Shown here: piece after piece, positions 527-53,513 of the stretch
Numbering within the stretch: the stretch's first letter is position 1
Layout: the number at the start of each line of letters is the position of its first letter
Assembly: GCA_965287045.1 (NCBI GenBank)
Contig: OZ336892.1
Location: forward strand, 33,170,001-33,234,000
Direction of reading: 5' to 3'
Length of the DNA stretch: 64,000 bases
From: Carcharhinus amblyrhynchos
Lineage: Eukaryota
Translations under genes and position numbers: made by a program
The notes under the pieces: model-generated
What the model was told of the DNA's origin: nothing
What the model saw: only the letters and a program-made list of their open reading frames with translations
Database searches by the model: none

Positions 527-1161
527 TTAATATACCTTCCTACACACATTGTTAGGTTTGATCAGAATCTGAGAAGACCTGCAGTTGCCATTGCACGAGC
601 CATACCAGTAGATTGAGCTCTTTGTATTCAAGTTAACCCTGTAACAGTTATTAAACCAGAAGCCGCCCCCACAACGTTTTGCACAGTTTGACCTTGACAA
701 ATCCTGGTCTCGGTCAAATGTTGAAAACTTCATGTTATCATGTAAAGCGGTCTTCAGAGTTCCGATCATAGCATTGCCTGCATTTCCTGTGTATCGACCT
801 AAACTTAATCTGTAACCATTTCTTTCATTCCCGATAGCGAATGAGTCATAATTAGCAACACGTAGTTTATTGTATCTATTCCTCAACAAGAACTTTATTT
901 TGTAATTTCCCTGACTTATGATCTTATATATGTATTCATTTCCCAGCCAGTGATCCCGAAGGATATTGCCAAATCCGTACTTGTAGGCTGTCCAGTATTC
1001 TTTCCAGGTAATTTCCGAACTCCGACTGTTCCTTTGAATCATGGTCCATCCACCACCATCTGTATTCATGTTGCAATACACAACAAGTAGGGGGGATCTG
1101 TTAGGCTTGATGACATAAAGTCCACTTCTACCCCTGACACCACTGCAATCCTTGGGATAAC
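527..1161 (-). CDS. FReD gene A, terminal exon encoding the whole fibrinogen C-terminal domain
   Basis: Translation GYPKDC..SGLYVIKP..VYCNMNTDGGGWTMIQR..YKYGFGN..HWLGNE..FSTFDRDQD..NCA..GGFWFNNC has the FReD hallmarks. Phase-1 acceptor atattgcAG at 1163-1162; TAA at 529-527. The first ~61 aa of the track ORF are intronic. Confidence 0.95.
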
Positions 1162-1530
1162 CTGCAATATGTAAAATTGATTTATTGATCTGTTGGTGAA
1201 AGGAGAGAGGGTTGAGGGTAGGGGATAAGAATGAGTGGCATAGTGTGGAGGAATTGAATGAAGTGAGAAACCAAAGATTACAGACAGAGGTAAGTGGGAG
1301 GAAAAGACAAAATAAGGGAGACAGAGAGAGTGGGAAAGTGGACAAAGTGTGGGAGAAGATGAAAAGTTAAACTTTATTTATTAGTGTCACAAGCTTGTTT
1401 ATATATTGTAGTGGTTTTCATGTTTGCCTAACACACCAAAGGACCTCTGTATGAAACTGGGCAGAAGCATTCATTAAGCTTTTTCATGTAAGGTGAGGAT
1501 AGTCTGTATGATTTCAGTTTCAAGGTAGAA

Positions 1531-1825
1531 CGGTGGTTAGCACTGCTGCCTCAGTGCCAGGTTCAATTCCGACTGTCTGTGTGGAGTTTGCATTTGCTCC
1601 CAGTGTCTGCATGGGTTTCCCCCCGGTGCTCCAGTTTCCTCCCATAGTCCAAAGTGTGTACATTAGGTGGATTGGCTATGATAAATTGACTCTAGTGTCA
1701 GGGGGATTAGCAGTGTAAATGTGTAGGGTTACAAGAATAGAATCTGTGTGGGATTGTGGTCATGACAAACTCCATGGGCCAAATGGCCTCCTCTGTACTG
1801 TAGGGATTTTATTCTATTCTATTTG
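1531..1825 (+). mobile_element. tRNA-derived V-SINE (HE1-like) with CR1-type tail
   Basis: Head ggtggttagcactgctgcctca/ggttcaattcc, V-domain gtctgtgtggagtttgca...ggtttcc, tail gggccaaatggcctcc...attct. Confidence 0.85.
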
Positions 1826-1831
1826 ATTCCA

Positions 1832-2098
1832 AAGTAGGCTTACATTAACACTGCAGTGAAGTTACTTTCAAAATCCTCTTGTCACCATACTCTGGTGCCT
1901 GTTTGGGTACACTGAGGGAAAATTTAGCATGGCCAATGCACCTACCCAGCATGTCTTTCGTACAGTGTGACAAACCTGGAGGAAACCCACACAGACATGG
2001 GGAGAATGTGCAGATTCCACACAGACAGTGACCCAAGTTGAGAATTAAACCTGGGTCCCTGGCGCTGTGAGGCAGCAGTGCAACCACTGTGCCGCCCC
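1832..2098 (-). mobile_element. V-SINE with the alternative tail (cagtaacttc...gtgacactaataaa); tail tip displaced to about 1367-1394
   Basis: Reverse complement has the tRNA head and V-domain; the tail matches the intact copy at 60481-60775. Confidence 0.8.
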
Positions 2099-2904
2099 CA
2101 GCACTGGAATGGATTGCAGACAGATTAAAAAGTGGATGGGATAGGGAGAGAGTGGGGAGAAACCATCAATGAGAGGAGAAGAGGAAGGGAGTAACTGGGA
2201 GGGAAGAGGAACTGAGCAAGGAGAGGATTGATGTGGAGAGAAGGGGACAGGATCAGATGGAGAGAAGTGGAAGAAGGAAAATTGAAGAAGGGGAAATGAA
2301 GGCAGAATAAAGGAAATGAGGGCTAGGGAAGAGTTAAGGAAATGGGAGGAAACAAGATAGAGATAAGAACATGACTGGGAAATGAGGGATCAGAAGGACA
2401 GAAAAAGAAAGAGAAATAACAATGATGAGGTGAAAAGTGGACAGAACAAATTAATGGGAATAGAACATGGAATGGGGAAAGGAGAAGAGAGGTAGGTGAA
2501 ATGGGAGGCAGATGCCAAATGCATGTTAGAAGTGAGAAAGGGAGATGAGGTGAAAGTGGAAAGGGAGAGTGTACCTCAATGAAAACCTGAAGCTTATTTA
2601 TCAAAGGGGGAAGGGGCTACCAATATTAGTTTGGATATGAATGGAGAGTTGGGTGCCAGTTGAAGATTTCACTGAAATTTTAGGACTGAATTTGTAGATC
2701 ACCAATATTATTTCATATTTACAAACCTATCCCTGGCCCAGGTTTTAACTAAAGCAGATTTTCTTTCAAATTCCAGGGGTCTCTAACAGTGGCTGCAGCA
2801 ATCTGTATCACATATCTGAGTGGGCAAACAGCCCTAAGCTAACCAACTCACTATTTCTTCATCCAACTCATTCATATACACAGTAAAAGCTAAGATCCCA
2901 TTAC

Positions 2905-3141
2905 AGAAAATGGGAGGTCCACACCAACTGACACAAGAACAGCTTCTTCCCTGCTGCTGTCAGACTTTTGAATGGACTTACTTTGCATGAAGTTGATCTT
3001 TCTCTACACCCTAGCTGTGACTGTAACACCACATTCTGCACTCTCGCGTTTCCTTTTCTGTGAACAGTATGCTTTGTCTGCATAGTGTGCAAGAAACAAT
3101 ACTTTTCACTGTATGTTAATACATTGACAATAATAAATCAA
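2905..3141 (+). mobile_element. Rex1/Babar-like LINE 3' end
   Basis: Encodes KNSFFPAAVRLLNG and ends tgacaataataaatcaa; same family as 54727-55806. Confidence 0.75.
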
Positions 3142-4063: not shown

Positions 4064-4192
4064 CATGTTTGGCTTTTGTTGGGAGGCCTCTGATGACCCT
4101 TTCTTCAGTGCTTAACATGTGCACGTTTGCAATTTCCTCTTCACAGTTTGCGATACCCATTGCAAGAAAAATGATTGCAGTCAAAACACAAC
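4064..4192 (-). CDS. FReD gene A, exon 2: signal peptide core and acidic propeptide
   Basis: ctcAG|GT TGT GTT...CAT G|GTTAGT; 129 nt, phase 1-1. Reads (G)CVLTAIIFLAMGIANCEEEIANVHMLSTEERVIRGLPTKAKH(G) and joins in frame to YPKDC. Confidence 0.88.
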
Positions 4193-6888: not shown

Positions 6889-6904
6889 CCATTTTGGTTG
6901 CCAT
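6889..6904 (-). CDS. FReD gene A, exon 1 (MATKM + G)
   Basis: Good Kozak context aggATGG, consensus donor G|GTAAGT, phase 1 matching exon 2, TATA-like element about 40 nt upstream. Confidence 0.75.
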
Positions 6905-6942
6905 CCTGCCTCAAATAGTGCAGATTAGCTCTGAAACCTCTG

Positions 6943-6950
6943 TATTTATG
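6943..6950 (-). promoter_or_regulatory. TATA-like box of gene A (CATAAATA)
   Basis: Lies 39-46 nt upstream of the proposed ATG, implying a short 5' UTR. Confidence 0.5.
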
Positions 6951-8780
6951 CTGACTGAGATCAAGGTATTTGCATAGACACACCTACACAATAGTTCCAG
7001 TAGCCTGCTCAGTGCGAGCACTTGAGATATTTGATATTGACACTGAGACAGAACCTGCTAAAAGTTCTTTTTTAACTAGCATGTCTGATTAACTCTAAGT
7101 ACTGCAGTTATGTTAACCATATTTTTGCCATTTGTCTCTCTATCTCTAATTTATATTGGCCCAGTTTCAGGGTACCAGATATCATCTGCCATCACACACA
7201 AATGACTAAGGAATGAAATCTCTACACGGGATACGTTGTTTGGGAAGTGTATGGTTGGAGTCATGGTGGAAATTATTCCTCAATACTTTAGGAATTAAAG
7301 AAGTTAAGAGGTGGCCAAGGTGGGGTCCTAAGCTGAAACATTGGTTTAGCTGAATTTTGGCACAAGGCACCAATTGTTATAAAGAAATTGATACCAGGGT
7401 AGGGACAGTCCCCCAGTGGCTTATTAAGTAATTGCCTCTTAAACTGCCTGTTGAAATCCATTAAAATGTTGGCATGGTATATTGGTAGTTTTCACAAAAA
7501 TTAATGCCTTCTCCTAACAGTTGGGAGTGAACACAGTATCAAAGTTTATTTCCCAGTAATTCTCACTATTTCATGTTGACTAGCTGCTGGAGCTGTGAAG
7601 CAATCCCCTGCAACATGCTGGAAGATTTAGTGGAACAGTTTACTCAAGATTTCACCAACTTCCTGGAAATTCTCTGAGAATTTTAGCTTCAAAAAATTAA
7701 TTGTGTGTTACTCTATCTCATTGGACACCTTACAGGAGTCATCAGGAGAAAGGAAGTTCTCAGTCAAGGGCATCTTGTTAGGGGACCCTTTTGGTTTGGA
7801 TGAGGAATGGGTGTGGGATGTGAAGTCAGACAGAGCAGTAGCAACTGCTGTAGGAGAGCGACAGAAGGGTGAGGTGGCTTTTGCCACCCCACTCAGCGTA
7901 AATGACATCTGTTCTCCAGACCATCTCCACCTGGATCTCCAATGCTGCATCCAAGTACCTGTCCCCTCATTCCCTTAGCCCCCAAGCTATCCAACAACCT
8001 GCTGCTGTGTGTCCGACAGAACAGTATGTATACACAAGTAAATTGGCTCATCAGCACTTGGGTGTTAAAACTGTAGGTTTTTGGTTAGCATTTCCAGACA
8101 AGTTGAAATCAGCAATTAAGTTAGGACCAAAATTACATGTTAAACCTTGACTTTCAAACATTCGTCTTATTAACTCTACATCCATTCAGAGCCTGAATAT
8201 TTGACTAAAATAACCCTCAGGAAGAGGAAGGGAACCAGCGATGTGATCATAACTGAGAACTTCACAACTTTGTAACATTCATTGGTGTGAAGTAGTTAAC
8301 ATGTAAAAAAGATGATCACCAGGCAGAAGAAATCAATGATTAGAGAATAGAGCAACATGGATGCAATTCTAATGCAAGGTAAGTTGTAAGTAAGTTAGTC
8401 TAATTTAATCACATTTCTATATTGTTATGCCTTAGAATGTGCCATTCATATTTATCAACATGGTGCTTTTGTAAGTAAGACACGGATTACTGGGCAGATT
8501 AGAGAAGTAAAAGAGCTGGCCAATGGTGTAGTGGTGGGCAGCACAGTGATTAGTACTGCTGCAGAGCTGGAACAAAATTTTTCATGCAGCCAGACCTTGG
8601 TGGCACCCAGCTCAGTAGGAGGCCAGTGGCATTGCGCTTAGCAGTTGAAGGTTCAAAACCATGTTCTGCAACCTCCAAATATGGAAAGCAGTTACTTCAT
8701 TGCATCTTCCTGCTTCCCACTTGATGCTAGTATTGGACGCAGGTCGTATAATCTTTGAGAAGGGCGCGAATATTCGGCAT

Positions 8781-9005
8781 GGTGACATGGTGTTTAGCAC
8801 TACTGCCCCACAGCGCCAGGGACCCGAGTTCGATCCCCAGCTAGGGTCACTGTCTGTGCAGAGTCTGCATATTCTCCCTGTGTCTGCGTGGGTTTCCTCT
8901 GGGTGCTCCAGTTTCCTCTCACAGTCCGAAAGACATGTCGGTTAGGTGCATTGGCTTAATTCTCCCTCAGTGTACCTGAACAGGTGCCGGAATGTGGCGA
9001 CTAAA
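8781..9005 (+). mobile_element. V-SINE
   Basis: tRNA-like A/B boxes (gttcgatccc) and V-domain. Confidence 0.8.
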
Positions 9006-9257
9006 ATGGTATTCTTCAATTATGGAGAAGACCAGTGAGATGGTGATGGGCAACAAAGCCTGTCCCTAGGAAATCAACATTAGTCTGTATAGTTCTGCTA
9101 AAGAAACATTTCTTCCCATTATGCCTAAATCTGGAAGACTGCTTATTCGTGTAAAGGAGGAATTTCCTGTTCATGTTTAGGTTACAGTATCATGAATAAT
9201 GAATGAGGTGGTAACATCAATAACAAATTTGTAATTCAGTATGCCACCGCCCTTCAT

Positions 9258-9560
9258 AGCCTTTTTCCTCGGATGGAGAAAGCTAGCACGAGGGGGCATG
9301 GCTTTAAATTAAGGGGGGGTAGTTAAAGGACGGATGTCAGGGGTAGGTTCTTTACCCAGAGGGTGGTGAGGGATTGGAATGCCCTGCCTGCTGCGGTTGT
9401 AAATGCGCCTAGTTTGGGGGCGTTTAAGAGATCCGTGGATAGGTTTATGGACGAAAAGGGATTGGTTTAGGTTAGAGGGTCATTGTTTTTTAACTGGTCG
9501 GCGCAACATCGTGGGCCGAAGGGCCTGTTCTGCGCTGTAATGTTCTATGTTCTATGTTCA
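9258..9560 (+). mobile_element. CR1 LINE 3' end, CpG-retaining
   Basis: FFTQRVV-type codons, gggccgaagggcctgttctg, (TTCTATG)n tail. Confidence 0.8.
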
Positions 9561-10369
9561 TGGTCCTCTTTCAACTGACTAATATTAATGATACATTGTT
9601 ATAACATAATGAATATGTCACAGAAAAATTGTATACTCTAAATTCTTTACTGAAGCAACATTCCAATAACAAGGAAGATATTTCTGTTTTGATGTGGTTT
9701 TCTGATTGTACCAGGAAGAAAAGCTTTAAATAACTCACTGACCTTTAAGTGAAGAAGTTTGAAATGTTTTGCAGGTCATGTCATTTAAATAAACAATGCA
9801 CAAGACTAGATTTGTCGATACATTAAACAAATTCACTCATCTCTCTGGTGTCAGGCTAATGGCATCAAACTCAGGTCTAATTGTTTTGAATTTCAATCAT
9901 CACATTTCATTTCAAAACTGTTCATCTGACATTTTCTCACCAAATGAAAATCTGAAGGAGTCCTGTCATGGGTCATCTTAATCTTGGTGGAAGTTTGTGA
10001 CCAAGCACCAGACATGCTGTGATTAGACAAAGTGTAGGAGGGATCAGAAATCAGAGTACTGGACAGTTGATGACAATCAACTGTGTTCTAATTCATCAAG
10101 AACTAGTCAGCTAATGCCATCAAGAAGGTGGCCAAACATCTGAAAGTAGCCTCACAATAAGAAAACCCTGCTATTTGTTACTCATTTCAAAGGTCTCTTT
10201 TAGGACTAATCAACTAAAATAATTTATTAACTGAATGTTACAGGTCTATCTAGAACAAAGTTTGGGATCCTGTTGATCTTAGAACACAAATGTTTTCTCA
10301 TCTCCTTGTATCCAATCCATACTTTATGCAGATAGATGGATTCCACATGGCATGATGCCAATACCATAA

Positions 10370-10692
10370 TGGCACAGTGATTAGCATTGCTGCCTCACAG
10401 AACCATGGACCTGTGTTTGATTCCAGCTTTGGGTGACTGTTTGGTGTTTGCATGTTCTCCCCGTGTCTACATGGGTTTTCTCCATGTAGTTACTTCCCAC
10501 TGCCCAAAGATGTATTGGTTAGGTGGATTGGCCAAGCTAAATTGCCCTTTAGTGTCCAAAGATGTGTAGATTAGGTAAATGTGCGGGGTTATGGGGATAG
10601 GGTAGGGTGTGAACTTGGGTAAGATTCTCTTTTGGAGAGTTGGTGCAGACAAATGGCCTCCTTCTGCACTGTAGGGATTTTATGGTTCTATG
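10370..10692 (+). mobile_element. V-SINE with CR1-type tail
   Basis: tggcacagtgattagc head, V-domain, aatggcctccttctgcactgtaggg tail. Confidence 0.8.
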
Positions 10693-11512
10693 GTATTGTG
10701 GTATGGCCTCATGTTCAGCCAATCTCATCACTGAAGCTGAAGAAATACCGCCTTCTTCATTGCAATCAGAGTGGGCAAACTGGATGTAGTGAGCGTTTAC
10801 GAGCCCCTGATAGGGATGTGGAATCATAGGAATAAGGTATTCAGCCTCTTGAGCTTGTTTCACTATTTAATGAGATAATGCCTGATCTGTGACCTAACTA
10901 CACATACCCCATATTCTCAGTGCCTTTGACTAACTAACAAAAATCAATGAATCAGTTTTAAAATGAACAATCGATTGCTATTTAGCAAAGAAAGTTCTAA
11001 ACTGCTACCACACTTTGTGTGAAAAAGTGGTTTCTAATTTCACTCCTGAAAGATTTGGCTGTAATATTTTGATCATGAGCTCTGATTCCTGGCCCCTTAA
11101 CTAGCACAAACAAGCTGCTAGGAAAGAACTGCGTGCTTAATTCTGCAAAAAGTGACTTACCCATGACCCTCTTGCCAGAATACACAGATAGGATTCTCAC
11201 CTATGACCTCAATTCACCAACACTAAACCAAAGATAAAAGCCAGAGTAATCTTGGCCTGGAAACGTGCTGTAATGTAATAGGGGGAGCACAACCATAACA
11301 AAGGGTCATCTGGACTCGAAATGTCAGCTCTTTTCTCTACTTACAGGTGCTGCCAGACAAAACAAGGAAACTGGAAGTAATCATCTGTAGACAGGAATTA
11401 GGTCTAGCAAGGATAACGATTAAAACTTTCATATGTCAGGAATAGGTTATAGTGGGATCAAAAGAGAAAATGCTGGAAAATCTCAGCAGGTCTGGGTTGG
11501 TAAGTTTGTTAG

Positions 11513-11882
11513 TTGGAGAGATGAGGGGTGATCTGATAAAGGTGTATAAAATGATGAGAGGTATTAATCAAGCAGACTTTCAGAGGCTTTTTCCCAGGGC
11601 TGAAGTGGTTGCCACAAGAGGATACAGGTTTAAGGTGCTGGGGAGTAGGTACAGAGGAGACGTCAGGGGTAAGTTTTTCACTCAGAGGGTGGTGGGTGCA
11701 TGGAATCGGCTGCTGGCAGTGGTGGTGGAGGCAAATTCGATAGGGTCTTTTAAGAGACTTTTGGATATGTACCTGGAACTTAATAAGATAGAGGGTTATA
11801 GGTTAGCCTAGTAGGCAGAGACATGTTCGGCAAAACTTGTGGGCTGAAGGGCCTGTTTGTGCTGTAGTTTTTCTATGTTTCT
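11513..11882 (+). mobile_element. CR1 LINE 3' end
   Basis: MRGDLIKVYKMM...FFTQRVVGAWN translation plus CR1 tail. Confidence 0.85.
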
Positions 11883-11892
11883 ATATATATAA

Positions 11893-12108
11893 TGTATGTT
11901 GGTCTTGTGGGGTGCATACTGCCCCTTTAAGAGCCTAGGTCAGGTGACCGCTGGGGGGATTAGCTCCTCCCATTGTGGGACCGGGTTGTGCACTCTTAGA
12001 TCTGACTGTGGAACACTGCACATTTACAATAAAGAATTCCCAGTGTTCAAGTTAGCAGTTCTACCTTGTGGTTCCTTATGCACCATGCTTTGGTAGTGCA
12101 TACATAAT
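11893..12108 (+). mobile_element. Probable solo LTR
   Basis: About 215 bp starting TGT, with cccctttaaga TATA-like motif and an internal AATAAA; no coding sequence. Confidence 0.45.
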
Positions 12109-12396
12109 AACTATCAGATCCCTCTTTCCATCTCACTTTAATTTACTGGTGTCAGTAGCAAAGTTCTCATTTATATTTTTGCAGTAGGTGGATTTATACA
12201 AATAGCACCCACTGAAGAAGGAATTCTGCCATTTTTCATGAAGCCTCTTTCTTTGATTTAAAGATAATTTATTTGGAGGTCAGGAGAAAGTGAACAGGAG
12301 AGTTTGTTCCAACTCATGATTCATAACTTTCTGCACTTTTTTCCCTTCCAGTCATAACAATATCTCTATTAAACTATTATGTTCATGACATACCCT

Positions 12397-12592
12397 TGAT
12401 TTGATTTGATTTATTATTGTCACATGTATTAACGTAACTGAGAAAAGTATTATTTCTTGTGCTCTGTGCAGATAAAGCATACCGTTCGTAGAGGAGGAAA
12501 TGAGACAGTGCAGAATGTAGTGTTACAGTCATAGCTAGGGTGTAGAGAAAGATCACCAATGCAAGGTAAGTCCATTCAAAAGTCTGACAGCA
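12397..12592 (-). mobile_element. Rex1/Babar-like LINE 3' end
   Basis: (gattt)n-attattgtcacatgt tail shared with 2905, 20876, 54727 and 58570. Confidence 0.75.
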
Positions 12593-13401
12593 GATTAGGA
12601 ATAAACAGATCATCCTCACATTGACAGCCTGTGACTAGCGGAGCGCTGCAAGGGCTAGTATTTGGACCGTAGCTATTCACAATGCATATCAATGATTTGG
12701 ATGTGGGGACCAAATGTACTATTTCCAAGTTTGCAGATGATACAAAACTAAGTGGCAATGTGTGTTGCAAGGAAGGTGTAAAGCGATTTCAAGAGGATTT
12801 AGACAGAGTTAGTGAGTGGACAAAAATGTGCAGGTGGAATATAATGTAGAAGAATATGAAGTTATCCACTTTAGTATGTGGAACAAATGTGTAGAGTATT
12901 TCTTAAATGGTGAGAAATTAGGAATTGTAAATCCACAAAGGGAGCTGGGTGTCCTCATAAATAAGGCACTGAAAGTTAACTTGCAATTGCATAAAGCAAT
13001 TAGAAAGGCTAAATTATCCTTAATCAGAAGAGGATTTGAGTTTAGGAATTGGGGTGTCTTGCTTCAATTGTATAGAATCTTGGTTAGGCTGAACATGAGG
13101 TACTATGTGTAGCTTTGGTGCCTCTATCTTAGGAAGAATATTATTTTCACAGAGGAAATGCAACAAAGATTCACCAGCTTTGTTTCTGGGATGATGGGAC
13201 TATCCTATGAAGAGAGATTGGGAAACTGGGGCTGTATTCTGAAAGGTGATCTAATTGAAACCTACAAAATATTTAACAGGAATAGACAGGGTAGATGCAG
13301 GTAAGATGTTCTGCTGGCTGAGGCATCTAGAACCAAGGGGCACAATTTCAAAATAAGGGGAATGCCACTTAGAACCAAGATGTGGAGAAATTGTTTTAAT
13401 G

Positions 13402-13748: not shown

Positions 13749-13902
13749 TAGAGGGTTACTCAGAGGGTTGTGAAACTTTGAACTTCTCTACCTCAGAGGG
13801 CTGTGGAAAGCCTGTCACTGAGTATGTTTAAAATAGAGATTAATAGATTTCTAAATACCAATGGCATAAAGTGATATGGGAATAGTGCGGGGAAAAGGAC
13901 AA

Positions 13903-39370: not shown

Positions 39371-39399
39371 TCCGAAAAAAAAGGAAATGATAAATACAA

Positions 39400-41750: not shown

Positions 41751-42139
41751 TTGTAGGGAAAGCACGCAGCGGGCCCTATTTTACCTTGTTGATCCTAAGT
41801 GCCTGGCGGAGTTGAAACTGGGAGTGTTTCAGATCCGACTTTTAGACCAGTTCTCAGGTGCCCCATACACACTCTGCCTGGAAAAATATCTGTTTCTGAA
41901 TTGTGCTGCACAAGCCTGTGGGCCCAATGCTCAAAACCTTGCAGCTCCAATTGGTGTCTCAACTGCTCATGTGCAAAAAAAAGATAGAATGCTGCCCTCC
42001 TGCCATATCTTTCTTGGGCCAAATAATGTCTCCCCTTGGTCCCCACAGACATTGCCCCACCCCCACAACATTATTGACAGCCTTATCCCCCCATCACTCC
42101 ACCACCAAGACCAATCGCAGGCCCCTCACCCCCTGCTTC

Positions 42140-44435
42140 CCCCTACAGGCAGAGTGGCAGTGGACCCCCCTTCCATCTCACCAATCTCAGGCAGAGTGGC
42201 AGTGGAATCCCTTCCACCCTACCGATCTCAGGCAGTGTGGTAGTGGCAATTCCCTTCCACACCACTGATCTCAGGCAGTGTGGTAGTGGCATTCCCTTCC
42301 ACACCACTGATCTCAGGCAGATGACAGTGGCATTCCCTTCCACACCACTGATCTCAGGCAGATGACAGTGGCATTCCCTTCCACACCACTGATCTCAGGC
42401 AGTGTGGTAGTGGCAATTCCCTTCCACACCACTGATCTCAGGCAGTGTGGTGGTGGCATTCCCTTCCACACCACTGATCTCAGACAGTGTGGTAGTGGCA
42501 ATTCCCTTCCACACCACTGATCTCAGGCAGTGTGGTGGTGGCATTCCCTTCCACACCACTGATCTCAGGCAGTGTGGTAGTGGCAATTCCCTTCCACACC
42601 ACTGATCTCAGGCAGTGTGGTAGTGGCATTCCCTTCCACACCACTGATCTCAGGCAGATGACAGTGGCAATTCCCTTCCACACCACTGATCTCAGGCAGA
42701 TGACAGTGGCATTCCCTTCCACACCACTGATCTCAGGCAGTGTGGTGGTGGCATTCCCTTCCACACCACTGATCTCAGGCAGTGTGGTGGTGGCATTCCC
42801 TTCCACACCACTGATCTCAGGCAGTGTGGTAGTGGCAATTCCCTTCCACACCACTGATCTCAGGCAGTGTGGTAGTGGCAATTCCCTTCCACACCACTGA
42901 TCTCAGGCAGTGTGGTGGTGGCATTCCCTTCCACACCACTGATCTCAGGCAGATGACAGTGGCAATTCCCTTCCACACCACCGATCTCAGGCAGTGTGGT
43001 AGTGGCATTCCCTTCCACACCACCGATCTCAGGCAGTGTGGTGGTGGCATTCCCTTCCACACCACTGATCTCAGGCAGTGTGGTAGTGGCAATTCCCTTC
43101 CACACCACTGATCTCAGGCAGTGTGGTGGTGGCATTCCCTTCCACACCACTGATCTCAGGCAGATGACAGTGGCATTCCCTTCCACACCACTGATCTCAG
43201 CCAGTGTGGTAGTGGCAATTCCCTTCCACACCACTGATCTCAGGCAGTGTGGTAGTGGCAATTCCCTTCCACACCACTGATCTCAGGCAGTGTGGTGGTG
43301 GCAATTCCCTTCCACACCACTGATCTCAGGCAGTGTGGTGGTGGCATTCCCTTCCACACCACTGATCTCAGGCAGATGACAGTGGCATTCCCTTCCACAC
43401 CACTGATCTCAGCCAGTGTGGTAGTGGCAATTCCCTTCCACACCACTGATCTCAGGCAGTGTGGTAGTGGCAATTCCCTTCCACACCACTGATCTCAGGC
43501 AGATGACAGTGGCAATTCCCTTCCACACCACTGACCTCAGACAGTGTGGTAGTGGCATTCCCTTCCACACCACTGATCTCAGGCAGTGTGGTAGTGGCAA
43601 TTCCCTTCCACACCACTGATCTCAGACAGTGTGGTAGTGGCAATTCCCTTCCACACCACTGATCTCAGACAGTGTGGTAGTGGCATTCCCTTCCACACCA
43701 CTGATCTCAGGCAGTGTGGTAGTGGCAATTCCCTTCCACACCACTGATCTCAGACAGTGTGGTAGTGGCAATTCCCTTCCACACCACTGATCTCAGGCAG
43801 TGTGGTAGTGGCAATTCCCTTCCACACCACTGATCTCAGGCAGATGACAGTGGCAATTCCCTTCCACACCACTGATCTCAGACAGTGTGGTAGTGGCATT
43901 CCCTTCCACACCACTGATCTCAGGCAGTGTGGTAGTGGCAATTCCCTTCCACACCACTGATCTCAGACAGTGTGGTAGTGGCAATTCCCTTCCACACCAC
44001 TGATCTCAGGCAGTGTGGTAGTGGCAATTCCCTTCCACACCACTGATCTCAGACAGTGTGGTAGTGGCAATTCCCTTCCACACCACTGATCTCAGACAGT
44101 GTGGTAGTGGCATTCCCTTCCACACCACTGATCTCAGACAGTGTGGTAGTGGCAATTCCCTTCCACACCACTGATCTCAGACAGTGTGGTAGTGGCAATT
44201 CCCTTCCACACCACTGATCTCAGACAGTGTGGTAGTGGCAATTCCCTTCCACACCACTGATCTCAGCCAGTGTGGTGGTGACATTCCCTTCCACACCACT
44301 GATCTCAGGCAGATGACAGTGGCATTCCCTTCCACACCACTGATCTCAGGCAGATGACAGTGGCAATTCCCTTCCACACCACTGATCTCAGACAGTGTGG
44401 CAGCAGCAGACCCCCTTTCACCCTCACTGATCTCA
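42140..44435. repeat. Minisatellite with 41-43-bp unit, roughly 50 copies
   Basis: Consensus ggcagtgtggtagtggcaattcccttccacaccactgatctca with recurrent variants; degenerate units at both edges. Confidence 0.97.
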
Positions 44436-44884
44436 AGCATTATAGCAGCAGCACCACCAACCCTCCAGCAACCCCCTCCCACCAACCAACCTCAGGCAGA
44501 GAGCTATCGGTTGCTAGGCACTTACCTACTCACTAACTAGAGTGCCCAAATCGGACCTATAAAGAGCATGTCTGTTTTGTGTTGATTCTGAATGGACCAA
44601 TGTGGTGGTAAAGGGGGAAGTGCCGGTAAAGTTGAACATGCAGCCCCTTAAGTCAATTTAAATTTAAATGCATGCAAATACATTTAAATGGTTATTGCGC
44701 CCATTTTGGGTGCAGTCCCAGTCCTGGACAATTTCAGGTGTTGGTAAAAGGGGAACTGGCGTGGAGGTTGGCACAGATTGCACTGCTTGCTTCATGCCCG
44801 ACTTCACCAAGTTTTCGCACCCGAAAACGGGTGCAACGCGATGGTCCAGCATCCCTGAATATACATCTCTCCTTGGAGGGTGAT

Positions 44885-45460
44885 ACAGTTTGAATTCAAT
44901 CCATAAAAATCCGGAACTAAAAGTCTAATGATGATCACTGTCATAAAAATCCACCTGGTTCATGTTGGTGTTCTACAGACTCCGGGCTCACAAGAATGTG
45001 GTTGGCTTTTAAATGTCCTCTGAAATGAGTTTGCTAGCCACTTGGTTGTATCAAGCTGCAAGTCTAAGAAATGGAAGCAGATGGATGCATTAATATAACA
45101 AAGGAAAATGACAATGACTTTGTCAGCCCTCTTGACCCTGCACAGTCCTCCTTAGAAAAATTGGGACAACTTTCCTATAGACTAGTCAAGCAATTGCCTG
45201 ACAATCACACCCACAAAATCATACCTTATAGACAATGTCCCAAACGCCACCAACACCATTTCTGCAGATGTCCTGACTCACCAGGCTCACCAAGACTTCT
45301 CAGTCAGCACTTTCTAAACCCATGATCTAGAAAGTGTAGAAGGAGACAGGCATCAGATGCAAGGAAACTGCACCACTTGCAAGTTTACTCCAAGCCACTC
45401 ACCATCCTGATTTGGAAATATATCACTGTTCCTTCACTGTCACTGGGTCTAAATCCTGAA
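44885..45460 (+). mobile_element. Internally deleted copy of the Deu-headed LINE
   Basis: Deu remnant, then KLGQLSYRLVKQLPD (endonuclease start), then an abrupt jump at about 45283 to the 3'-terminal region (ccatcctgatttggaaatatatc). Confidence 0.7.
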
Positions 45461-45957
45461 TAATATAAATACCATGAGGCCCTGAATCTTTTTGCATCAT
45501 TGAGTATTTGGACCATGTCAATCATTTGGTTCAAAGCTCCATCATTCTTTTGAACAATGGCTGGACTGTTGCCAACTTTATATTACCATGGCTTGCAAAC
45601 ACTTTCGGGAAATACATTTAAGTTCCCGAAATACTTGCAAAACATGCTTCAGGGTACCTGGTATCTTGAGATCAAAATGAATAAATCATATTGCATTCTT
45701 CTGCATAGATTATCTGTCTAGATTGTTACTTATCATAATTTCCTGTTGCCTAATGATAATTTTCATTGTGTTTATGAAAATTGCCTATTTCATATATTTA
45801 GATTTACAGCAGACATTCCTGCTCACCAACCCAGTGATGGTTTAGAGGGGACAAAGGGAATTCCAAGGTAGTTTTGTTGAGGAGGATATCTAGCAAATTG
45901 GGGTTTTTTTTAACCCATCTTGCAGAGTGGGACACGATTTGGATCAGATGAAGTTCT

Positions 45958-46255
45958 TTATTTTATGTTCATTTGTGGGGCATGGGCATCACTGGCTGGC
46001 CAGCATCTATTGCCCATCCTTAATTGCTCTTGAGAAGGCGGTGAGGGGGCTGCCTTCTTGAAATACTGATACAGCTGAGTGGATTGATAGATTATTTCAG
46101 AAGGCAGTTGGGAGTCAACCACATTGCTGTGGCTCTGGAGTCACATGTAGACCAGATCAGGCAGTATGTGCTGTGACAGGATTCGAGCCCGGGTCCCCAG
46201 AACATTACCTGATTTTCTGTATTAATAATCTAGTGCTAATATAACTAGACCATCC
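45958..46255 (-). mobile_element. Deu-domain SINE
   Basis: tRNA head, partial Deu core and LINE-type tail on the minus strand. Confidence 0.75.
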
Positions 46256-48134
46256 CCCCTCTTAAAATATATAAATATGAATGGCATCTTCAAATGACCA
46301 AACCATTCTCAGTGACATCACGGATTCTCCCCAAAAAATCTAAGTGTGGAATTTACATAAAAACTGGAGTAAATTCCACTATTTTTTCAGGAGGATTTTC
46401 TAAATGAATCTGCTACACGCTGCGCACCACAAAGTTCACTAGCGTGAATCACGTGAAAAATAAGGAGACAGGGCCTATTCCCACTGAGAGGCCAGCAGCA
46501 TAGCGTGAGTGGGTCATTGTGCATGTGGCCATCTGTCAGCACCGAGATTGGAGCATGCACAGTAGCCCTGCACTGCCAGCCACCTGATCACTGGCCTCCC
46601 AGATGTGTCCGGGCCAGCATCAATTCCTCCCCCATCAGCCCACTCATCTCTGCCCGGCAGTCCCTATCTACCCTCCCCACATGCAGCTGAAGTGACCCCT
46701 GGGTATTGCCACTTTGCCCCTTGGGGAGTGAATGGGGCCAGACTGGCACTGCCAAGCTGCAATGCCCAGAGGACACACCCCCCCCTTACCCCCAGCCCTC
46801 TGGGTGGCCTCCATGGCCCACCCTTCACTCCAGTGGGGTCGGGTCACCACAAGCAGGGAGCCATTGTAAACGCTGCTGGAGTGAAACACTCCTGGCACTG
46901 GGGGGATTCCCTGGTAGGCTGGGAGACTTCAGTTCCGGGCCCACTGATGATATCCAAATGCCTATTAGAATAAATTATTCAGCTCTGTGCTGATTTCTGG
47001 CACAGAGCTGATGGCACTGGAAAAGAGTCTCCATTTTCCTTGAACTTGGATATCACTGTGATGTTGGCCATCCCTCCTCCTCTCCCTCCTGTTGTGGGCA
47101 AGCCTGGACTGCCGACAGAAGGAAGGAATGTGAGGAGAAAGGATGGAGCAGAGGTTGTGAAATTTACAAGTGTCTGGTGTGTGCGGTGAGCCCACTCCAG
47201 AAACGGTTGACAATGAAGTTTGTGCAGCATGATTGGTGAGATAGTGGTGATATGAAAATATCATGAGACAATTTGTGTTGATATATGTCCCCTGCTAATG
47301 TTGTGAGATCCCTGAAGATTGTAGCCCTTTGAGTGCATGACAGTGTGATTTACAGAAGCTGAAGATTAACTTATCCTAGCGGAGTGGATATGATCCTGCA
47401 CTGGATAGCATTTTGGGGGCAATTGCCGACTGCACTGACCTGATATGCTATGGCCTCCCAAGTGAGAGAACTGAAGCTAGTGTGCTCCTGGAGCTATCCA
47501 TCAGGAAAAGCACATCCCAGTATTGGTGAACTCCTGGTATCAAAGCCTCGAGGGAGTCATGGCTAAATCTTGGAACAGTCTTCTTCTACTTCTGCAGCGT
47601 AGATATCTTTACAGGTCCCTTGAAAAACAGCTGGATTGGAGAGAGTGGAATGTGTGTGTGCCCAGGGGCATTTAGATATGGCATTTGGACCTTTGACCCA
47701 TTAGACAATGGTGGGGCGGACTGATCAGTTCCCAGGGGGTTAGGAGAGATAATCGACTGTACAGAATTAATTTGTTTCTGAGTGTGAAAATGGGAGCTAT
47801 TTTCCACCAGTCCAACCAACAGGAACCCAGCCATGGAACCCAGCCACTAAGATACTTAATTGCTAAAATGGAATGTTCTACCCATTGTTCCTGAGCTACT
47901 GCCAACTTCACACACCCATGGAATAATACACTTTACATTTAAGATTATGCAAGAAAAGCCCAGAACATCTAGTGGTATTTTCACATGAATATTTTTGGAA
48001 CATCAACAAATCAATGTTGCATTCTTCTGCATATATTATCTACCTATGTAGTTATTTTATCATAATTTCCTTATTTCCTGAAGACATTTTACATTGTACT
48101 TTTGAGAATTGCCCATTTCATATATTTAATTGAT

Positions 48135-48551
48135 TTGAGAATTGAGGGGAGATCTCATTGAGACGTATAAGATGTTGAATGGGATGGATAGGATAGAGGT
48201 GGAGAGGCTCTTCCCGCTCAGAAAGGACAGTAGGACTAGAGGGCACAGCCTCAGGATAAAGGGGGGGGGGCGGTTTAGAATGGAGTTGAGGAGGAACTTC
48301 TTCACTCAAAGGGTGGTGAATCTCTGGAATTCTCTGCCCGTTGAAGTGGTGGAGGCTGCCTCGCTCAATATTTTTAAGACGCGGGTTGATAGGTTTTTGA
48401 TAGGCAAGGGGATTAAGGGTTATGGGGAGAGGGCGGGAATGTGGAACTGAGCCACGACAGATCAGCCATGATCTTATTGAATGGCGGGGCAGGCTCGAGG
48501 GGCTAGGTGGCCTACTTCTGCTCCTATTTCTTATGTTCCTATGTTCTTATG
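48135..48551 (+). mobile_element. Young CR1 3' end
   Basis: RGDLIETYKM..FFTQRVVNLWNSLP; (TTCYTATG)n tail; very similar to 63411-64000. Confidence 0.92.
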
Positions 48552-48776
48552 TACTGCCGTTGCTGGAATCTGAAACAAAAACAGAAAATGCTGGAAAATC
48601 TCACATATCTGACAGAATCCATGGAGAGAGAATAGACCCAACATTTTGAGTCTAGATGACCCTTCATCAGAACTTTTTTTTGACTAAGGATAATCTATAC
48701 TCAAAACATTGGCTCTATTCTCTCACCATACAAGCTGTCAAACTGCTGAGATTTTCCAGCATTTTCTGTTTTTGTT
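48552..48776. mobile_element. Inverted pair of Penelope-like terminal repeat fragments
   Basis: aacaaaaacagaaaatgctggaaaatctca ... tgagattttccagcattttctgtttttgtt; the same motif occurs singly at about 11460, 60860 and 63270-63400. Family assignment is from recall. Confidence 0.6.
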
Positions 48777-49009
48777 GATGTAAGCAGGGGGCTGGCAGTT
48801 TGGATGGCAGGGCAGAAGGGGCAAGAGCATTTCTGAGGAAGAGGTAATTGGATTAGGTGCATTGATAGGGGCCAGCGGTCTTTAAGGGTGCAGAGGAGGT
48901 TAGGTCATTGAGGAAGGTTAAGGGGATCTTAATCAGCCGAATACCTTGGATGCGGTGTCACAGAGGTTGAAGAATTTCCAATTTGTTCTGTAAATTTACT
49001 CCAGACTTG

Positions 49010-49300
49010 TGCATAGTTTGCTGGAGGTGAGATTCAGTATTGCAGCAACAAAGATAGAGAAGAGAGTTTGTGCAATAATATAGCCTTGTTTGACTCCAGT
49101 CTTCACTGAGATAGGGTGTGTGGTACTTCAGTTGGTGAGGATCATGGTTTCCATGTCATGGTGCAGAAGACGGAGTATGGTGATAGATTTCTTTGGCCAG
49201 CCAAATTTGCGGAGAATACTCCAGAAGCTTTCACCTTTGACATAGTCAAAGGCAGGTCATGTATAGCAGTTGGTGCTGTCCCTTGCATTTTCCTGAGGAA
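49010..49300 (-). mobile_element. RTE LINE RT fragment
   Basis: WSILRKFG.PKKSITILRLLHHDM..ISVKTGVKQG..TLFSIF. Confidence 0.75.
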
Positions 49301-51039
49301 ATTAGATAAAGTGCTGCCCACCAAAACACGATACAGACTTTTTAACAAGACAGGCATTTAAAATGGCAATTTAACAAGCCTACAGACGACTATTCCATGT
49401 GCTGGCTTCAACTACTTTGCCAAATAAGATGGTAAACTGAGCACTTCAGCTTAATACTCCCATCTTGGTAACATCTTTACCTCCATTTGGCGAAAGTTCC
49501 CTCTGGCCCGCACCTCCCGACTGATGTTTAAAATGGAACTACGGATCTTTGCCTTACTGCTAGTTTGTTAAAGGTATGTTATTGCAGATAGCCAGCATTT
49601 CAGGACTGGTTTTGTTTTTATTACACTGTGGAAAAATAGCTCTGATGTGAACCAAATTCATATCCACCATTCCCACAACCCTCAAGTTGCTCCAGTGAGC
49701 CCATTCTACAGTAGGGTGACATTTCTGTCATTTGTTATATCATCCTGGGATTTCATGGACCAAGAGGGTAGAGTGGTGAAGAAGAAGTTTCCACTGATGT
49801 CATAATTCAAACAAGTTTTATTGTCACAATCAGAGACATCCCCCCCCCCCGCCACATTTACAATTCCTAATAGTACCCTTCTCCCGAGTTTAACTTTATG
49901 AAAATTGAATAAAATGCTTATGTTAACATCTAGTGAAGCCTGTTTGACAGGTGTTTGGGAGAACGTCAACGCCTCTATTAAACGTCACATACATATCACT
50001 ATAACATACATCACCCAACCTCTCAAAATACAGTGTGCCTTCCAAACTCTCTGTGGCTGGAAACCTGTCCACAATGTAAGTATGTCTGTAGCCTTGTTTG
50101 TTGTTCTAAGCTACTAATTCAATATGTGCTGTATAGTAACGAGTCTGAAGGTAATGGAACAGGGTCAGTTCCTGCTTTACATTCCCTATCTACGTGTAGC
50201 TAATTGTAAGTCATGTTAAAGGTGCAGGATTTGCAGAAATGATCTCAGACAGATCTAAGTTTAGATCCACACACTTTGTGCTGAGTGTTCTTAAATAGCT
50301 TTGTGCTTGGTGATGTGAATACGTCTGTTTCCTTTACACAAAAGAGGAAACAATATGGGCTTTTGACAGTAATGCTTCATACATGAGAATGAAATAATAA
50401 AGTAATATCACTGAATTATAAATAAAAATGCATTGATAGTACATATGATAATCAGATATTTAATTATTTGGAGACATGTGCTAAAGAGATCTTTAATCTG
50501 CAAAACAACAACAATAACTTGTATTTATGTGGTGCCTTTAATGTAATGTTCTTAACAGGAACAAGTGTTTAACCGGAACATTATCAAACAAAATCTGACA
50601 CATTGGTCACCCTATCACACATGAAGGTTTTAGGACAGGTGACGGAAAGGGATTTCACAGTAACTTCATTGCAGTGTTAATGTAAGCTTACTTGTGACAC
50701 TAATAATAAATAAACTTTGATAACTAATAAAACTTACTCAGAGTGAAGTCTTAGAAGTATGTTAAAGAGGGAGGAGAGCTCTCGAGGAAATTCGACGATT
50801 AGACAACTGAAGGCACATCTGCCAGTGCTGAAACAATTCAAATTGTGGAAATAAGAGCTTGCAATTGAGACAGTGCTGAGATCTCAGAGGGTGGTGAGAC
50901 TAGAGGAAGTTTCTGGGATGGGGAAGGAGGGAGAGTTAGTGCGGGGTAAAATGGAGGCTACGCTGGAACATAAGCCAATGTAGGTTAGCGAGCACAGGGG
51001 TGATAATGGTTGAATATTGGTGAAATATGAAATGAGTGT

Positions 51040-51215
51040 TCTAAAAATCCATCTGGGTCACTACTGAGAAGGAAATCTGTAATCCTTACCTGATCTTGCC
51101 TACCTGTGACTCACAATCCATAGAAATGTGGTTTAGTGTTAACTGCCCTCTGTAATGGTGCAGTAAGCCATTCAGTTCAAGGCAACAGATGGGCATTGAT
51201 GCTCACATCTCCTGA
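51040..51215 (+). mobile_element. Deu-domain SINE fragment
   Basis: gaaggaaatctgtaatccttacctg...aatgtggttt...actgccctctg. Confidence 0.65.
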
Positions 51216-52156
51216 AAGTATAATCGAAACAATGAAATATTAATGAAACATTATACAGAAAGACAACTCGAGAGCAAACATTTGATGAACAATTGTTTAA
51301 TGTTAATCTCCTTGCATCCAAATTGTTCGGTACCCTTGCTCATGCATCTTCCACCTTTTCAGCACCGGGAGAAAGTCAGCTGGAAAGCTGAAGAGCTCAA
51401 AGAAATTTGAGCACATTGTAGGGCTGTGAATGATTGGGACGTTGATCCATTGATAATGTCAGAATCACAGCAGCGGAGTGTCTTTGTTGCTGATGTTGGG
51501 AGCCAGAGGAAGGTTCCCTAATTGGCATTTAAATGGTGGATGCCATCACCACAGTGTTATAATAGTTAAAAAGCCACCAGCTGCTAGACTGTGGGAGAGG
51601 GTTACTAGGTCTTATCAGGAACCTTATTCTGTGGCACCCCTGATATTCCTCCACACAATGAACTCTAAATCCACCACTCAGTGCCCAGGTTGCTTATAGC
51701 TATTGTGCTACTCAACATGTTCACTGAGTAGGCAGGGATGTGGAAATTCCAACACTAGATCACAGTCCTTCCTGCATCAGTGGCTGCACACACTTCTGCC
51801 ACACTTTTGCTGGAGTATGGTGAGAGAGGAGGAGCAGAACCATGGTCTTTTGATCCTATACCTTTGTGCATGTATGATTTTTCTGCCACATGTATAAGAT
51901 TTCAAATTGCAGAGAGAACAATGCTGCGACAGAAGGAGAAGTCTTTGCTGGAGATGTTGTATCACTAGGAAAAAGTGGAACTAGTCGCATTGAATCATTC
52001 CAGTAACATAGTCAGGGATAGAGAGTAGGTATGGAGGATGCTGCTGATGTACGTTATTTACTGCGACAGTGGATTTTAAGTTCCTTTTTGTCTGAGTTTT
52101 TTAAAAGGTAACTGTGACCACGATCTATTAAATGACCTTTACTTCCCAGGAGATTG

Positions 52157-52229
52157 ATGAAAATGGAGCAAAGAATCTTCTTTCAGATTGGTTTCTTCCT
52201 CATACTTACAGTGGCAACAATTTCAGCAG
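52157..52229 (+). CDS. FReD gene B, signal peptide exon
   Basis: MKMEQRIFFQIGFFLILTVATISA + G|GTAAGA (phase 1); acceptor ttacttcccAG at 52148-52149 implies a non-coding upstream exon. Confidence 0.85.
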
Positions 52230-52352
52230 GTAAGAAATATTATTGCAAAAATCATCATTAAGACCACTCAGTCAGATCCCTAAATCTCCTACTGAGAATT
52301 ATTCTGTTCATATTAGCAGCATTATAGCTGCAGTCCCAGATCACAAAAGCAG

Positions 52353-52427
52353 ATACATCTGGTGAACTGGATGCTGAGAGGAACAACCTTCTCGCTTCCA
52401 ATGAAAAGGAAAGGTCTGTGAAAGAAG
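52353..52427 (+). CDS. FReD gene B, propeptide exon (open portion; 5' boundary uncertain)
   Basis: (D)TSGELDAERNNLLASNEKERSVKE + G|GTTAG, phase 1-1; resembles the gene A propeptide. The stronger acceptor at 52316 gives the same frame but includes a TAG. Confidence 0.6.
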
Positions 52428-52902
52428 GTTAGAGCGCGACAGTCTAAAGACCAGATAGTAAAGAGGGAAATTCATTGAGGTGTAAAAAAAATGTAATGTT
52501 ACATATCAGCTAAACACAGGTGACTTCAACGTACTGAGGGTGTAAGTAAATACATTTAAATGAGTGAGGAACAGTTTCACAAACAATTATTAGAATAAGT
52601 TTCTTTCCAGAAAGAGAAATAAATACCTGGATCTGCTTACCAGACAAAGTTGTGCAGAAAAATCTATTAGAAATTGTAACTAGAGAGATTGGAACCAGAT
52701 GATATGTTTCAATAAGCTGAAAGATCTTTTTCATCCTTAATTTTTCTTATGAAAAATGAACAGTTAGGATTCTTTTATTTTGCATCCATTTAAGAGACAA
52801 CACTATTAGCTGGGACTGACTAGATACCCAGCTTCCCAATATGTATATGAACCATTATTGTGTATGGATTCAAATTGTTGGCATGATTTTGTTTATCTTC
52901 AG

Positions 52903-53513
52903 TGCCACGTGACTGCACAGCAATTCACCAAAGGAACAAAAGGGCTACTTCAGGGCTTTACGTTATTCGGCCTGCACGGTCCCCCCTACTTGTGGTCAGA
53001 TGTGTCATGAAACGCAATGGTGGCTGGACAGTGATTCAAAGAAACAGCAGAGGCAGCAAGATCACCTGGAAAGAAAGCTGGACCACATATAAATACGGTT
53101 TTGGTGATGTGTTGAGTGATCACTGGCTGGGCAATGAGTACATCTACCTTCTAACTAAGCAGAATAGGTACAAACTGAGAATAGAGTTTATAGATAGTAG
53201 GAATAGATTTAAATATGCAGAATATTCCTCTTTTTACCTAGAATCTGAGAGTGGGAAATACACCATCAGACTTGGCTCATTTTCTGGGAATGTGATTGAC
53301 CAAATGACCCGAAATGTAAACAAAGGAATGGTTGATAACCAGCCCTTTTCCACAAAGGATCGAGATTATGATAGTTACCGAGGGTCATGCAGTTCTAGTT
53401 ATGGGGGATGGTGGTTTGATGCTTGTGGTTATGTGTATCTTAATTACAAATATCCATACTGGAATGGAATTTCCATCAAGAAAGTTACCATGATGATTCA
53501 ACCAACCTGTTAA
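52903..53513 (+). CDS. FReD gene B, terminal exon encoding the whole fibrinogen C-terminal domain
   Basis: Acceptor gtttatcttcAG; (V)PRDC..SGLYVIRP..GGWTVIQR..YKYGFGD..HWLGNE..FSTKDRDYD..GGWWFDAC; clear paralogue of gene A. Confidence 0.93.

What the first reader, a model, noticed from the sequence alone, without database searches (positions are those of the whole stretch)
527..53513. Divergent pair of stand-alone, strongly cationic FReD preproproteins with acidic propeptides
Seen: both genes encode only a signal peptide, a short propeptide and a FReD. They lack the coiled coil of FGL1/FGL2/angiopoietins and the collagen stalk of ficolins. Hand counts in the terminal exons give about 32 K+R against 12 D+E for gene A and about 31 against 16 for gene B. 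The propeptides are acidic (EEEIANVHMLSTEE; DTSGELDAE..). Known: acidic propieces neutralising cationic mature domains are typical of defensin-type precursors, and FReDs often act in innate recognition. From memory, the QRNS..EITWKESW..YKYGFG signature resembles the poorly characterised bird/reptile 'fibrinogen-like protein 1-like' group. Inference: a protease-activated secreted effector family (antimicrobial, or a self-assembling mucus/oviduct/egg-case component) in sharks.
Basis: partly seen in the sequence, partly recalled or inferred. Interest (0 to 1): 0.75.

Follow-up and report, generated by a model that had tools for sequence, protein, structure and literature searches.

The report
Cationic shark gut-type fibrinogen-domain pair
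Two shark genes encode small fibrinogen-domain proteins, predicted to be secreted, from an old and little-studied vertebrate family whose chicken members coat gut bacteria; the shark versions are unusually positively charged and likely bind microbes in mucus, but only one of them has a propeptide.

Summary
Both genes are real, intact and head-to-head, 45 kb apart. The charge counts are right (A 32/12, B 31/16). B's 'acidic propeptide' is intron: 4 of 4 runs (3 studies) join the signal exon straight to the FReD exon, and 13 orthologues show no propeptide. A has a 14-residue pro-segment plus RVIR, but it is -5 against +22. Its IxNxHML motif also occurs in neutral relatives, so it is not a charge neutraliser. 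Both belong to the FGL1L clade (lamprey, sharks, non-teleost fish, amphibians, reptiles, birds). A and B are ancient paralogues; a shark-only pairing is rejected (AU p=0.00016). Published primers tie three chicken clade members, misnamed CDD, ANGPTL6 and DMBT1-L, to microbiota-induced caecal proteins that co-purify with gut bacteria. The clade keeps the calcium aspartates but lacks the 10-12-residue loop of the ficolin/FIBCD1 acetyl pocket. Strong positive charge appears only in elasmobranch A and B. Best reading: secreted mucosal bacteria-binding proteins with an added cationic surface (0.55); tissue and activity in sharks are untested. Interest 0.4.

The parts
6889..6904 (-). Gene A exon 1, coding part (MATKM, phase-1 donor)
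   Evidence: Only match to the orthologue N-terminus pattern in the window; GT donor
4064..4192 (-). Gene A exon 2: rest of the signal peptide (predicted by eye), pro-segment 4142-4101 (net -5; IANVHML motif at 4133-4113), RVIR site 4100-4089, short basic linker
   Evidence: tblastn of P0037 84% identical; AG/GT sites, charges and motif counts; single copy in the genome
527..1161 (-). Gene A exon 3: whole FReD in one exon, 32 K+R / 12 D+E, 8 Cys
   Evidence: Pfam; AlphaFold pLDDT 93.8; Foldseek FReD fold
476..481 (-). AATAAA, likely poly(A) signal of gene A
6905..52156 (.). 45 kb between the two start codons; repeat-rich (LINE/SINE pieces, 43-bp minisatellite); no FReD or SRCR exon
52157..52229 (+). 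Gene B exon 1, coding part: 24-aa signal peptide (predicted by eye)
   Evidence: tblastn of P0001 96% identical; joined in transcript contigs
52230..52902 (+). Gene B intron; holds the false 'DTSGELDAE propeptide exon' (52353-52427)
   Evidence: Skipped in 4 of 4 runs; donor changed in X1 and X7; weak acceptor
52903..53513 (+). Gene B exon 2: whole FReD, 31 K+R / 16 D+E, 5 Cys including a C-terminal Cys; shortest P-subdomain tail (25 aa)

Best explanation
Genes A and B are ancient paralogues of the FGL1L fibrinogen-domain clade that likely encode secreted mucosal (probably gut) proteins, which would coat and clump bacteria and so keep them off the epithelium, as proposed for their chicken relatives. 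Shown here: gene structures, B's splicing, clade membership, retained calcium aspartates, loss of the acetyl-pocket loop, and a strong positive charge confined to elasmobranch A and B. Shown in chicken by others: microbiota induction and co-purification with caecal bacteria. Inferred steps: (1) Signal peptidase releases mature B directly (VPRDC...). (2) A keeps a 14-residue conserved pro-segment that a furin-type or luminal trypsin-like protease removes at RVIR; it probably aids folding, sorting or assembly rather than masking charge. (3) Binding uses a remodelled, calcium-stabilised P-subdomain rather than the ficolin acetyl pocket. (4) The elasmobranch cationic surface (+15 to +22) adds electrostatic affinity for LPS, teichoic acid or mucin. 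(5) The conserved C-terminal Cys, unpaired by count in B, may link monomers into multivalent oligomers.
For: Trees: the FGL1L clade has support 100/99, and A sits in a 19-row group (84/82) with the three chicken proteins. Primers in the supplement of PMC5042506 translate into P0025 (CDD, both primers), P0071 (DMBT1-L, reverse primer only) and P0073 (ANGPTL6, both primers). That paper's Table 3 ranks DMBT1-L, ANGPTL1-L, ANGPTL6, CDD and FGL1-L 1, 2, 3, 5 and 6 among bacteria-bound proteins in recipient chicks, and Table 1 shows induction by microbiota. PMC5447358 finds CDD, ANGPTL1-like and fibrinogen-like A-like proteins in chicken intestinal digesta. Spliced B lies in a metatranscriptome library, X5 (tissue not shown). 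Spliced-contig depth is 16,302 in X7 and 7,729 in X8, against 18.7 and 12.3 for the intron and 12 in X1. This is only a hint of strong, tissue-dependent transcription, because contig depth cannot rank expression. Calcium aspartates are conserved in at least 90% of 91-98 aligned members (site defined in PMC3908420). A caspase-1-like gene is a neighbour.
Against: No shark tissue is known for either gene. The chicken proteins are near neutral (-2, -1, -1), so bacteria binding there needs no cationic surface. Co-purification with bacteria may be indirect, through mucus or IgA; the paper itself says they may bind food particles. B has no bird orthologue in the trees (B + CDD-type clade AU p=0.046), so function is transferred across a deep branch. 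The acetyl pocket of known bacteria-binding FReDs is not retained. Sawshark B is -2 and lungfish B -7. Proteins of the same name also occur in turtle plasma and trout liver (subfamily not checked).
Confidence: 0.55

Rival explanations
1. Directly bactericidal cationic effectors, with A held inactive by its acidic pro-segment until cleaved (RegIII- or defensin-like; the analogy is recalled, not from a call).
For: Mature A is +22, pI 9.86; B is +15, pI 9.65. The pro-segment is acidic, and RxxR is conserved in 10 of 11 elasmobranch A proteins. Five alignment columns gained positive charge in both A and B.
Against: B has no pro-segment. -5 cannot offset +22. The pro-motif is shared with neutral and acidic relatives, and tetrapod members are neutral (medians -3 to -4). 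No killing is reported for the chicken members in the passages read.
Confidence: 0.15
2. Plasma or tissue signalling / acute-phase ligands, like the FReDs of FGL1 or ANGPTL, using the basic surface to bind glycosaminoglycans or a receptor.
For: Two proteins named FGL1L rose about 2.2-fold in plasma of moribund turtles (PMC8084024), and one rose in infected trout liver (PMC6167799). The best solved-structure matches are ANGPTL2, ANGPTL3, tenascin and FGL1.
Against: The subfamily of those proteins was not determined, and the clade has at least five subfamilies. The closest characterised relatives of A are luminal gut proteins. There is no coiled coil for receptor clustering.
Confidence: 0.15
3. 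Structural, self-assembling component of mucus, oviduct secretion or egg case, cross-linked through the C-terminal Cys.
For: The C-terminal Cys is nearly invariant, and B has an odd Cys count. Contig depth is very high in two runs.
Against: No paper found links the family to egg case or oviduct. The genes are conserved from skates to requiem-type sharks, and in birds the relatives are gut proteins. The main text of a shark skin-mucus proteome lists only fibrinogen beta (PMC10707392; a pilot study, weak).
Confidence: 0.12

Closest known systems
FGL1L clade, including chicken CDD (P0025 cluster), 'ANGPTL6' (P0073) and 'DMBT1-L' SRCR-FReD (P0071) of PMC5042506
   Same: Single FReD after a signal peptide or short pro-segment; QRN..ITW.E.W..YKYGFG signature; short P-subdomain tail; C-terminal Cys; about 48-52% identity; one clade
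   Different: The shark proteins are strongly cationic (+15, +22 vs -1 to -2) and have no SRCR form. B lacks the C-x2-4-C tail disulfide and any pro-segment. Shark tissue and activity are unknown.
Tachylectin 5A / ficolins / FIBCD1 (acetyl-binding FReD lectins)
   Same: Same fold (B model vs FIBCD1 Z 27.9, rmsd 1.6, 194 aligned; vs TL5A Z 27.5, rmsd 1.8); calcium aspartates kept; TL5A is also a stand-alone FReD
   Different: The loop carrying Tyr431/Ala432 (TL5A Tyr236/Ala237) is missing, and His415 is replaced by Tyr (A) or Gly (B); no collagen stalk or membrane anchor
FGL1, FGL2, angiopoietins, ANGPTL2
   Same: FReD fold, 28-42% identity; FReD in one exon, as in the genome's FGL2-like and FGA-like exons (L006, L008)
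   Different: No coiled coil. FGL2-like, ANGPT and fibrinogen rows fall outside the clade. FGL1 and ANGPTL rows were not in the tree and were judged by score only (best E 7.9e-35).
RegIII lectins / alpha-defensins (recalled, no call)
   Same: Gut-type secreted cationic protein with a short acidic pro-segment (A only)
   Different: Unrelated fold; the pro-segment is too small to balance the charge and is absent in B

Membership tests
FGL1L clade (chicken CDD/DMBT1-L/ANGPTL6-named proteins) | Falls inside the clade in a maximum-likelihood tree | tested here: met
   39-row clade at 100/99 with 8 outgroup rows; 62-row clade at SH-aLRT 99 with 15 outgroup rows
FGL1L clade (chicken CDD/DMBT1-L/ANGPTL6-named proteins) | Shortened P-subdomain tail (second Cys to last Pro) | tested here: met
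   A 29, B 25; clade 25-32 (62 rows) vs 38-49 (15 outgroup rows)
FGL1L clade (chicken CDD/DMBT1-L/ANGPTL6-named proteins) | 1:1 orthology with one chicken gene | tested here: inconclusive
   A with the CDD-type clade AU p=0.49; A with the DMBT1-L-type clade p=0.18; B with the CDD-type clade p=0.046
FGL1L clade (chicken CDD/DMBT1-L/ANGPTL6-named proteins) | Secreted into the gut lumen and bound to bacteria | not testable with these tools
   Shown for chicken only (PMC5042506)
Acetyl-binding FReD lectins (ficolin/FIBCD1/TL5A) | Calcium site Asp pair (FIBCD1 Asp393/Asp395) and P-domain disulfide | tested here: met
   A D151/D153 and C159/C172; B D154/D156 and C162/C174; conserved
Acetyl-binding FReD lectins (ficolin/FIBCD1/TL5A) | S1 pocket residues Tyr405, His415, Tyr431, Ala432, Trp/Tyr443 | tested here: not met
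   By sequence register: His position is Tyr (A) or Gly (B). 6 residues lie between LN and the conserved W, against 16 in TL5A and a 12-residue gap vs ANGPTL2. The Tyr405 position is Tyr in B and Cys in A. No residue-level 3D superposition was available.
Ficolins | N-terminal collagen stalk | tested here: not met
   Full models of 259 and 227 aa match their orthologues end to end
FGL1/FGL2/angiopoietin/ANGPTL | N-terminal coiled coil | tested here: not met
   none of the 30 longer hits is a named shark A or B form (weak evidence by that tool's note)
SRCR-FReD form (bird/turtle DMBT1-L) | SRCR exon before the FReD | tested here: not met
   No tblastn or HMM hit in the window or +-100 kb
Defensin-type preproproteins | Acidic propiece that balances the cationic mature peptide | tested here: not met
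   A -5 vs +22; B has none
Defensin-type preproproteins | Activation by proteolysis | not testable with these tools
   Only a conserved RxxR site in A (10 of 11)

The most novel reading that the evidence does not exclude
FGL1L is an unrecognised, lamprey-old family of mucosal microbe-binding FReDs that replaced the acetyl pocket with a new ligand surface and is absent from mammals. In elasmobranchs, two paralogues that split before the shark-bony fish divide became strongly cationic in parallel, turning neutral agglutinins into salt-tolerant bactericidal effectors, one constitutive (B) and one protease-gated (A).
Probability: 0.2. Interest if true: 0.7.

Novelty: new variant of a known kind. 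Interest (0 to 1): 0.4.

Why it matters
The genes already carry automatic database names in many sharks, so their existence is not news. Three things are useful. First, several misnamed chicken gut proteins (CDD, ANGPTL6, DMBT1-L) and these shark genes form one old clade with a remodelled ligand domain, which gives a testable function to an orphan family. Second, the cationic shift in elasmobranch A and B is a natural experiment on how a FReD gains charge-based microbe binding. Third, the analysis corrects the gene model of B. If bactericidal activity were shown, it would add a new class of vertebrate mucosal effector.

Tried and rejected
B propeptide exon: rejected. Logan contigs drop rare variants, so a minor isoform is not excluded. 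Recent shark-specific duplication of A and B: rejected (AU p=0.00016). Hidden SRCR or extra FReD exon: none found. Shared bidirectional promoter: not supported, as the starts are 45 kb apart; promoters were not analysed. Synteny with the chicken chr1 gene named FGL1L (near THSD1 and MRPS31; PMC10976558): MRPS31 lies on C10, not beside the window. Synteny of the myotubularin / caspase-1 flanks with birds was not established (search listing; PMC11258412 passages, say nothing on it). Cytidine deaminase activity, suggested by the labels on chicken and Callorhinchus members: only PF00147 was found in A and B, so the label is treated as a misnomer. RNA support for A's joins was not obtained. Surface charge could not be mapped, because the models come without coordinates. 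Shark tissue evidence was sought and not found: PMC10707392 passages; PMC8923501 main text had no hit and its supplements were unreadable; PMC3466250 main text has no mention and its supplements were unreadable. These unread supplements may bear on tissue. PMC3575912 (Doolittle 2012) is not held; it may already discuss these proteins. Earlier scan findings: none. Loss in mammals was not tested: no mammal appears among named clade rows, but these searches are word-limited and some rows are unnamed.
Full report
Setting. The window is G000:C23:33,170,001-33,234,000 of a 2.9-Gb genome. The nearest named proteins are from Mustelus asterias, at 87-89% identity. Each of the two long ORFs matches only Pfam PF00147.

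Gene models. Gene A (minus strand) has three coding exons: 6904-6889, 4192-4064 and 1161-527. Exon 1 was found by the orthologue pattern. All four splice sites are canonical, and the product is 259 aa with 225 of 260 identities to P0037. Its joins were not checked against RNA. Gene B (plus strand) has two exons, 52157-52229 and 52903-53513, giving 227 aa with 204 of 227 identities to P0001. Of 11 runs listed I laid 4, from 3 studies. All 4 show one joint that skips 673 nt, GT..AG. The runs are mostly 90-99% alike to the window, so they come from relatives or other individuals, and only X5 is on record as RNA; no intronless full copy of B turned up in the genome search. Of 13 B orthologues, 11 visibly have no propeptide and the other two have the same length. 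Signal peptides were judged by eye.

Charge. Mature A after RVIR is +22 (pI 9.86), and its pro-segment is -5. Mature B is +15 (pI 9.65). FReD net charge, median (rows):
- elasmobranch A +13 (11; range +7 to +17)
- elasmobranch B +11 (11 of 12 parsed; sawshark -2)
- chimaera A +2; lungfish B -7
- birds and turtles -3 (20); amphibians -4 (16)
- bichir/holostean/lungfish -2 (8 of 9 parsed)
- the genome's own other paralogues +2, -6 and -8
The cationic character is therefore specific to elasmobranch A and B, not a family trait. Fifteen positions gained positive charge in each of A and B. Five columns are shared, and by their letters they fall in the N-terminal quarter. Parallel gain is an inference.

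Pro-segment. An [IVL]xNx[H..][ML..] motif (IANVHML in A) occurs in 10 of 11 elasmobranch A proteins. It also occurs in neutral or acidic subfamilies (11 of 13 C-type, 7 of 8 D-type) and in 0 of 13 B proteins. RxxR occurs within 22 residues of the FReD in 10 of 11 A proteins, and four turtle relatives have RGKR, RRKR or RQKR. Cleavage is plausible; charge neutralisation is not what the segment was kept for (inference).

Phylogeny. FReD-only trees (77 rows quick; 47 rows careful with a mixture model) were built from hand-picked subsets of the hits. They give one FGL1L clade (100/99) that includes a lamprey protein (named). B groups with lungfish (100/98) as a deep branch. A lies in a 19-row group (84/82) with chimaera, lungfish, coelacanth, bichir, bowfin, frog, turtle and bird members. 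Shark A + shark B as one clade is rejected (p=0.00016). A cannot be assigned to one chicken gene. A and B share the same listed contig length in 9 of 9 chondrichthyans that have both; this shows the same chromosome, not adjacency. FGL1, ANGPTL, ficolin, MFAP4, FIBCD1 and tenascin were not in the trees. Some bird and turtle members carry an SRCR domain. None is present here or within 100 kb on either side.

Structure. The AlphaFold models are confident (A 93.8; B 91.7) and match FReD structures (TM 0.84-0.89; Z up to 28.8, rmsd 1.4-1.6). The calcium aspartates and the P-domain disulfide defined for FIBCD1 (PMC3908420 passages) are conserved. The tail from the second P-domain Cys to the last Pro is 25-32 residues in 62 clade rows, against 38-49 in 15 outgroup rows. 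The missing 10-12 residues include the loop that carries TL5A Tyr236/Ala237, equivalent by spacing to FIBCD1 Tyr431/Ala432. The pocket His is replaced. The classical acetyl pocket is therefore likely lost across the clade. Most members have a W-x3-C-x2-4-C tail instead, which B lacks. A C-terminal Cys is at least 90% conserved, and B has five Cys; an inter-chain bond is a guess.

Function from relatives. I read passages, the Discussion and supplement rows of PMC5042506. It reports FReD proteins called CDD, ANGPTL6, DMBT1-L, ANGPTL1-L and FGL1-L as top-ranked proteins on chicken caecal bacteria. The first three are induced by microbiota, and the authors propose that they aggregate bacteria in mucus. 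The paper's primers translate into P0025, P0073 and P0071 (5 of 6 primers matched). All three are in the group that holds A. PMC5447358 passages list similarly named proteins in intestinal digesta. Against a purely gut role, FGL1L-named proteins appear in turtle plasma (PMC8084024 passages) and trout liver (PMC6167799 passage), subfamily unchecked. For B, one holder is a metatranscriptome library, and two runs have spliced-contig depths of 16,302 and 7,729 against 12 in another. These are hints only, and no tissue is given.

Literature. Ten searches of the open-licence library found no paper that defines this clade or studies the shark genes. Subscription papers are missing, Doolittle 2012 was not held, and two sets of supplements were unreadable.

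Verdict. These are ordinary annotated members of an old, neglected clade. Most likely they are mucosal bacteria-binding proteins (0.55). Rivals are direct killing (0.15), plasma or signalling ligand (0.15) and structural secretion (0.12). Interest 0.4.

Noticed in passing
L041:2873-3202 and L042:1867-2154 (C23 about 33.277-33.286 Mb, +): Caspase-1-like gene (CARD and caspase exons; best PDB hits caspase-1) 43-52 kb right of the window.
   Followed up: partly
L032:5-343, L033:841-1122, L033:2042-2299 (C23 about 33.12-33.13 Mb, +): Myotubularin-related gene about 40-50 kb left of gene A; subfamily not resolved.
   Followed up: partly
L002 and L004 (C11:82.43-82.45 Mb); L005 (C14:76.10 Mb): Three more FGL1L-clade paralogues (C-, D- and E-type), each with a single-exon FReD, and none strongly cationic (+2, -6, -8).
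   Followed up: yes
L007:963-1647 (C11:41.42 Mb) vs window 53364-54048: 685-bp, 99%-identical copy of the 3' end of gene B plus the downstream repeat on another contig: a recent segmental copy or transduction, or an assembly artefact.
   Followed up: partly
L009 (C23:31.69 Mb): Decayed FReD fragment with three stops, 43% identical to B, about 1.5 Mb from the pair.
   Followed up: no
window 42184-44439: 43-bp minisatellite, 53 copies, 93% matches.
   Followed up: no
window 53513 (just after B's stop codon): All four runs carry a 9-nt insertion here that the window lacks.
   Followed up: no
upstream of window 52100: Contigs in X1 and X7 both run 1,423 letters beyond 52100 on B's 5' side: a possible long 5' UTR or upstream exon. 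S. torazame isoform P0002 matches an in-frame upstream stretch at 52038-52073.
   Followed up: no
P0244, P0238 clusters (Callorhinchus): Clade members labelled 'cytidine deaminase' or 'ryncolin-like'. The C-type cluster has 28 members, most listed ones with serial AFM accessions, suggesting an abundant transcript; tissue not found.
   Followed up: partly
window 22291-24556, 61627-62199, 63498-63998: LINE reverse-transcriptase-like fragments, recognised from the translations without a family search.
   Followed up: no
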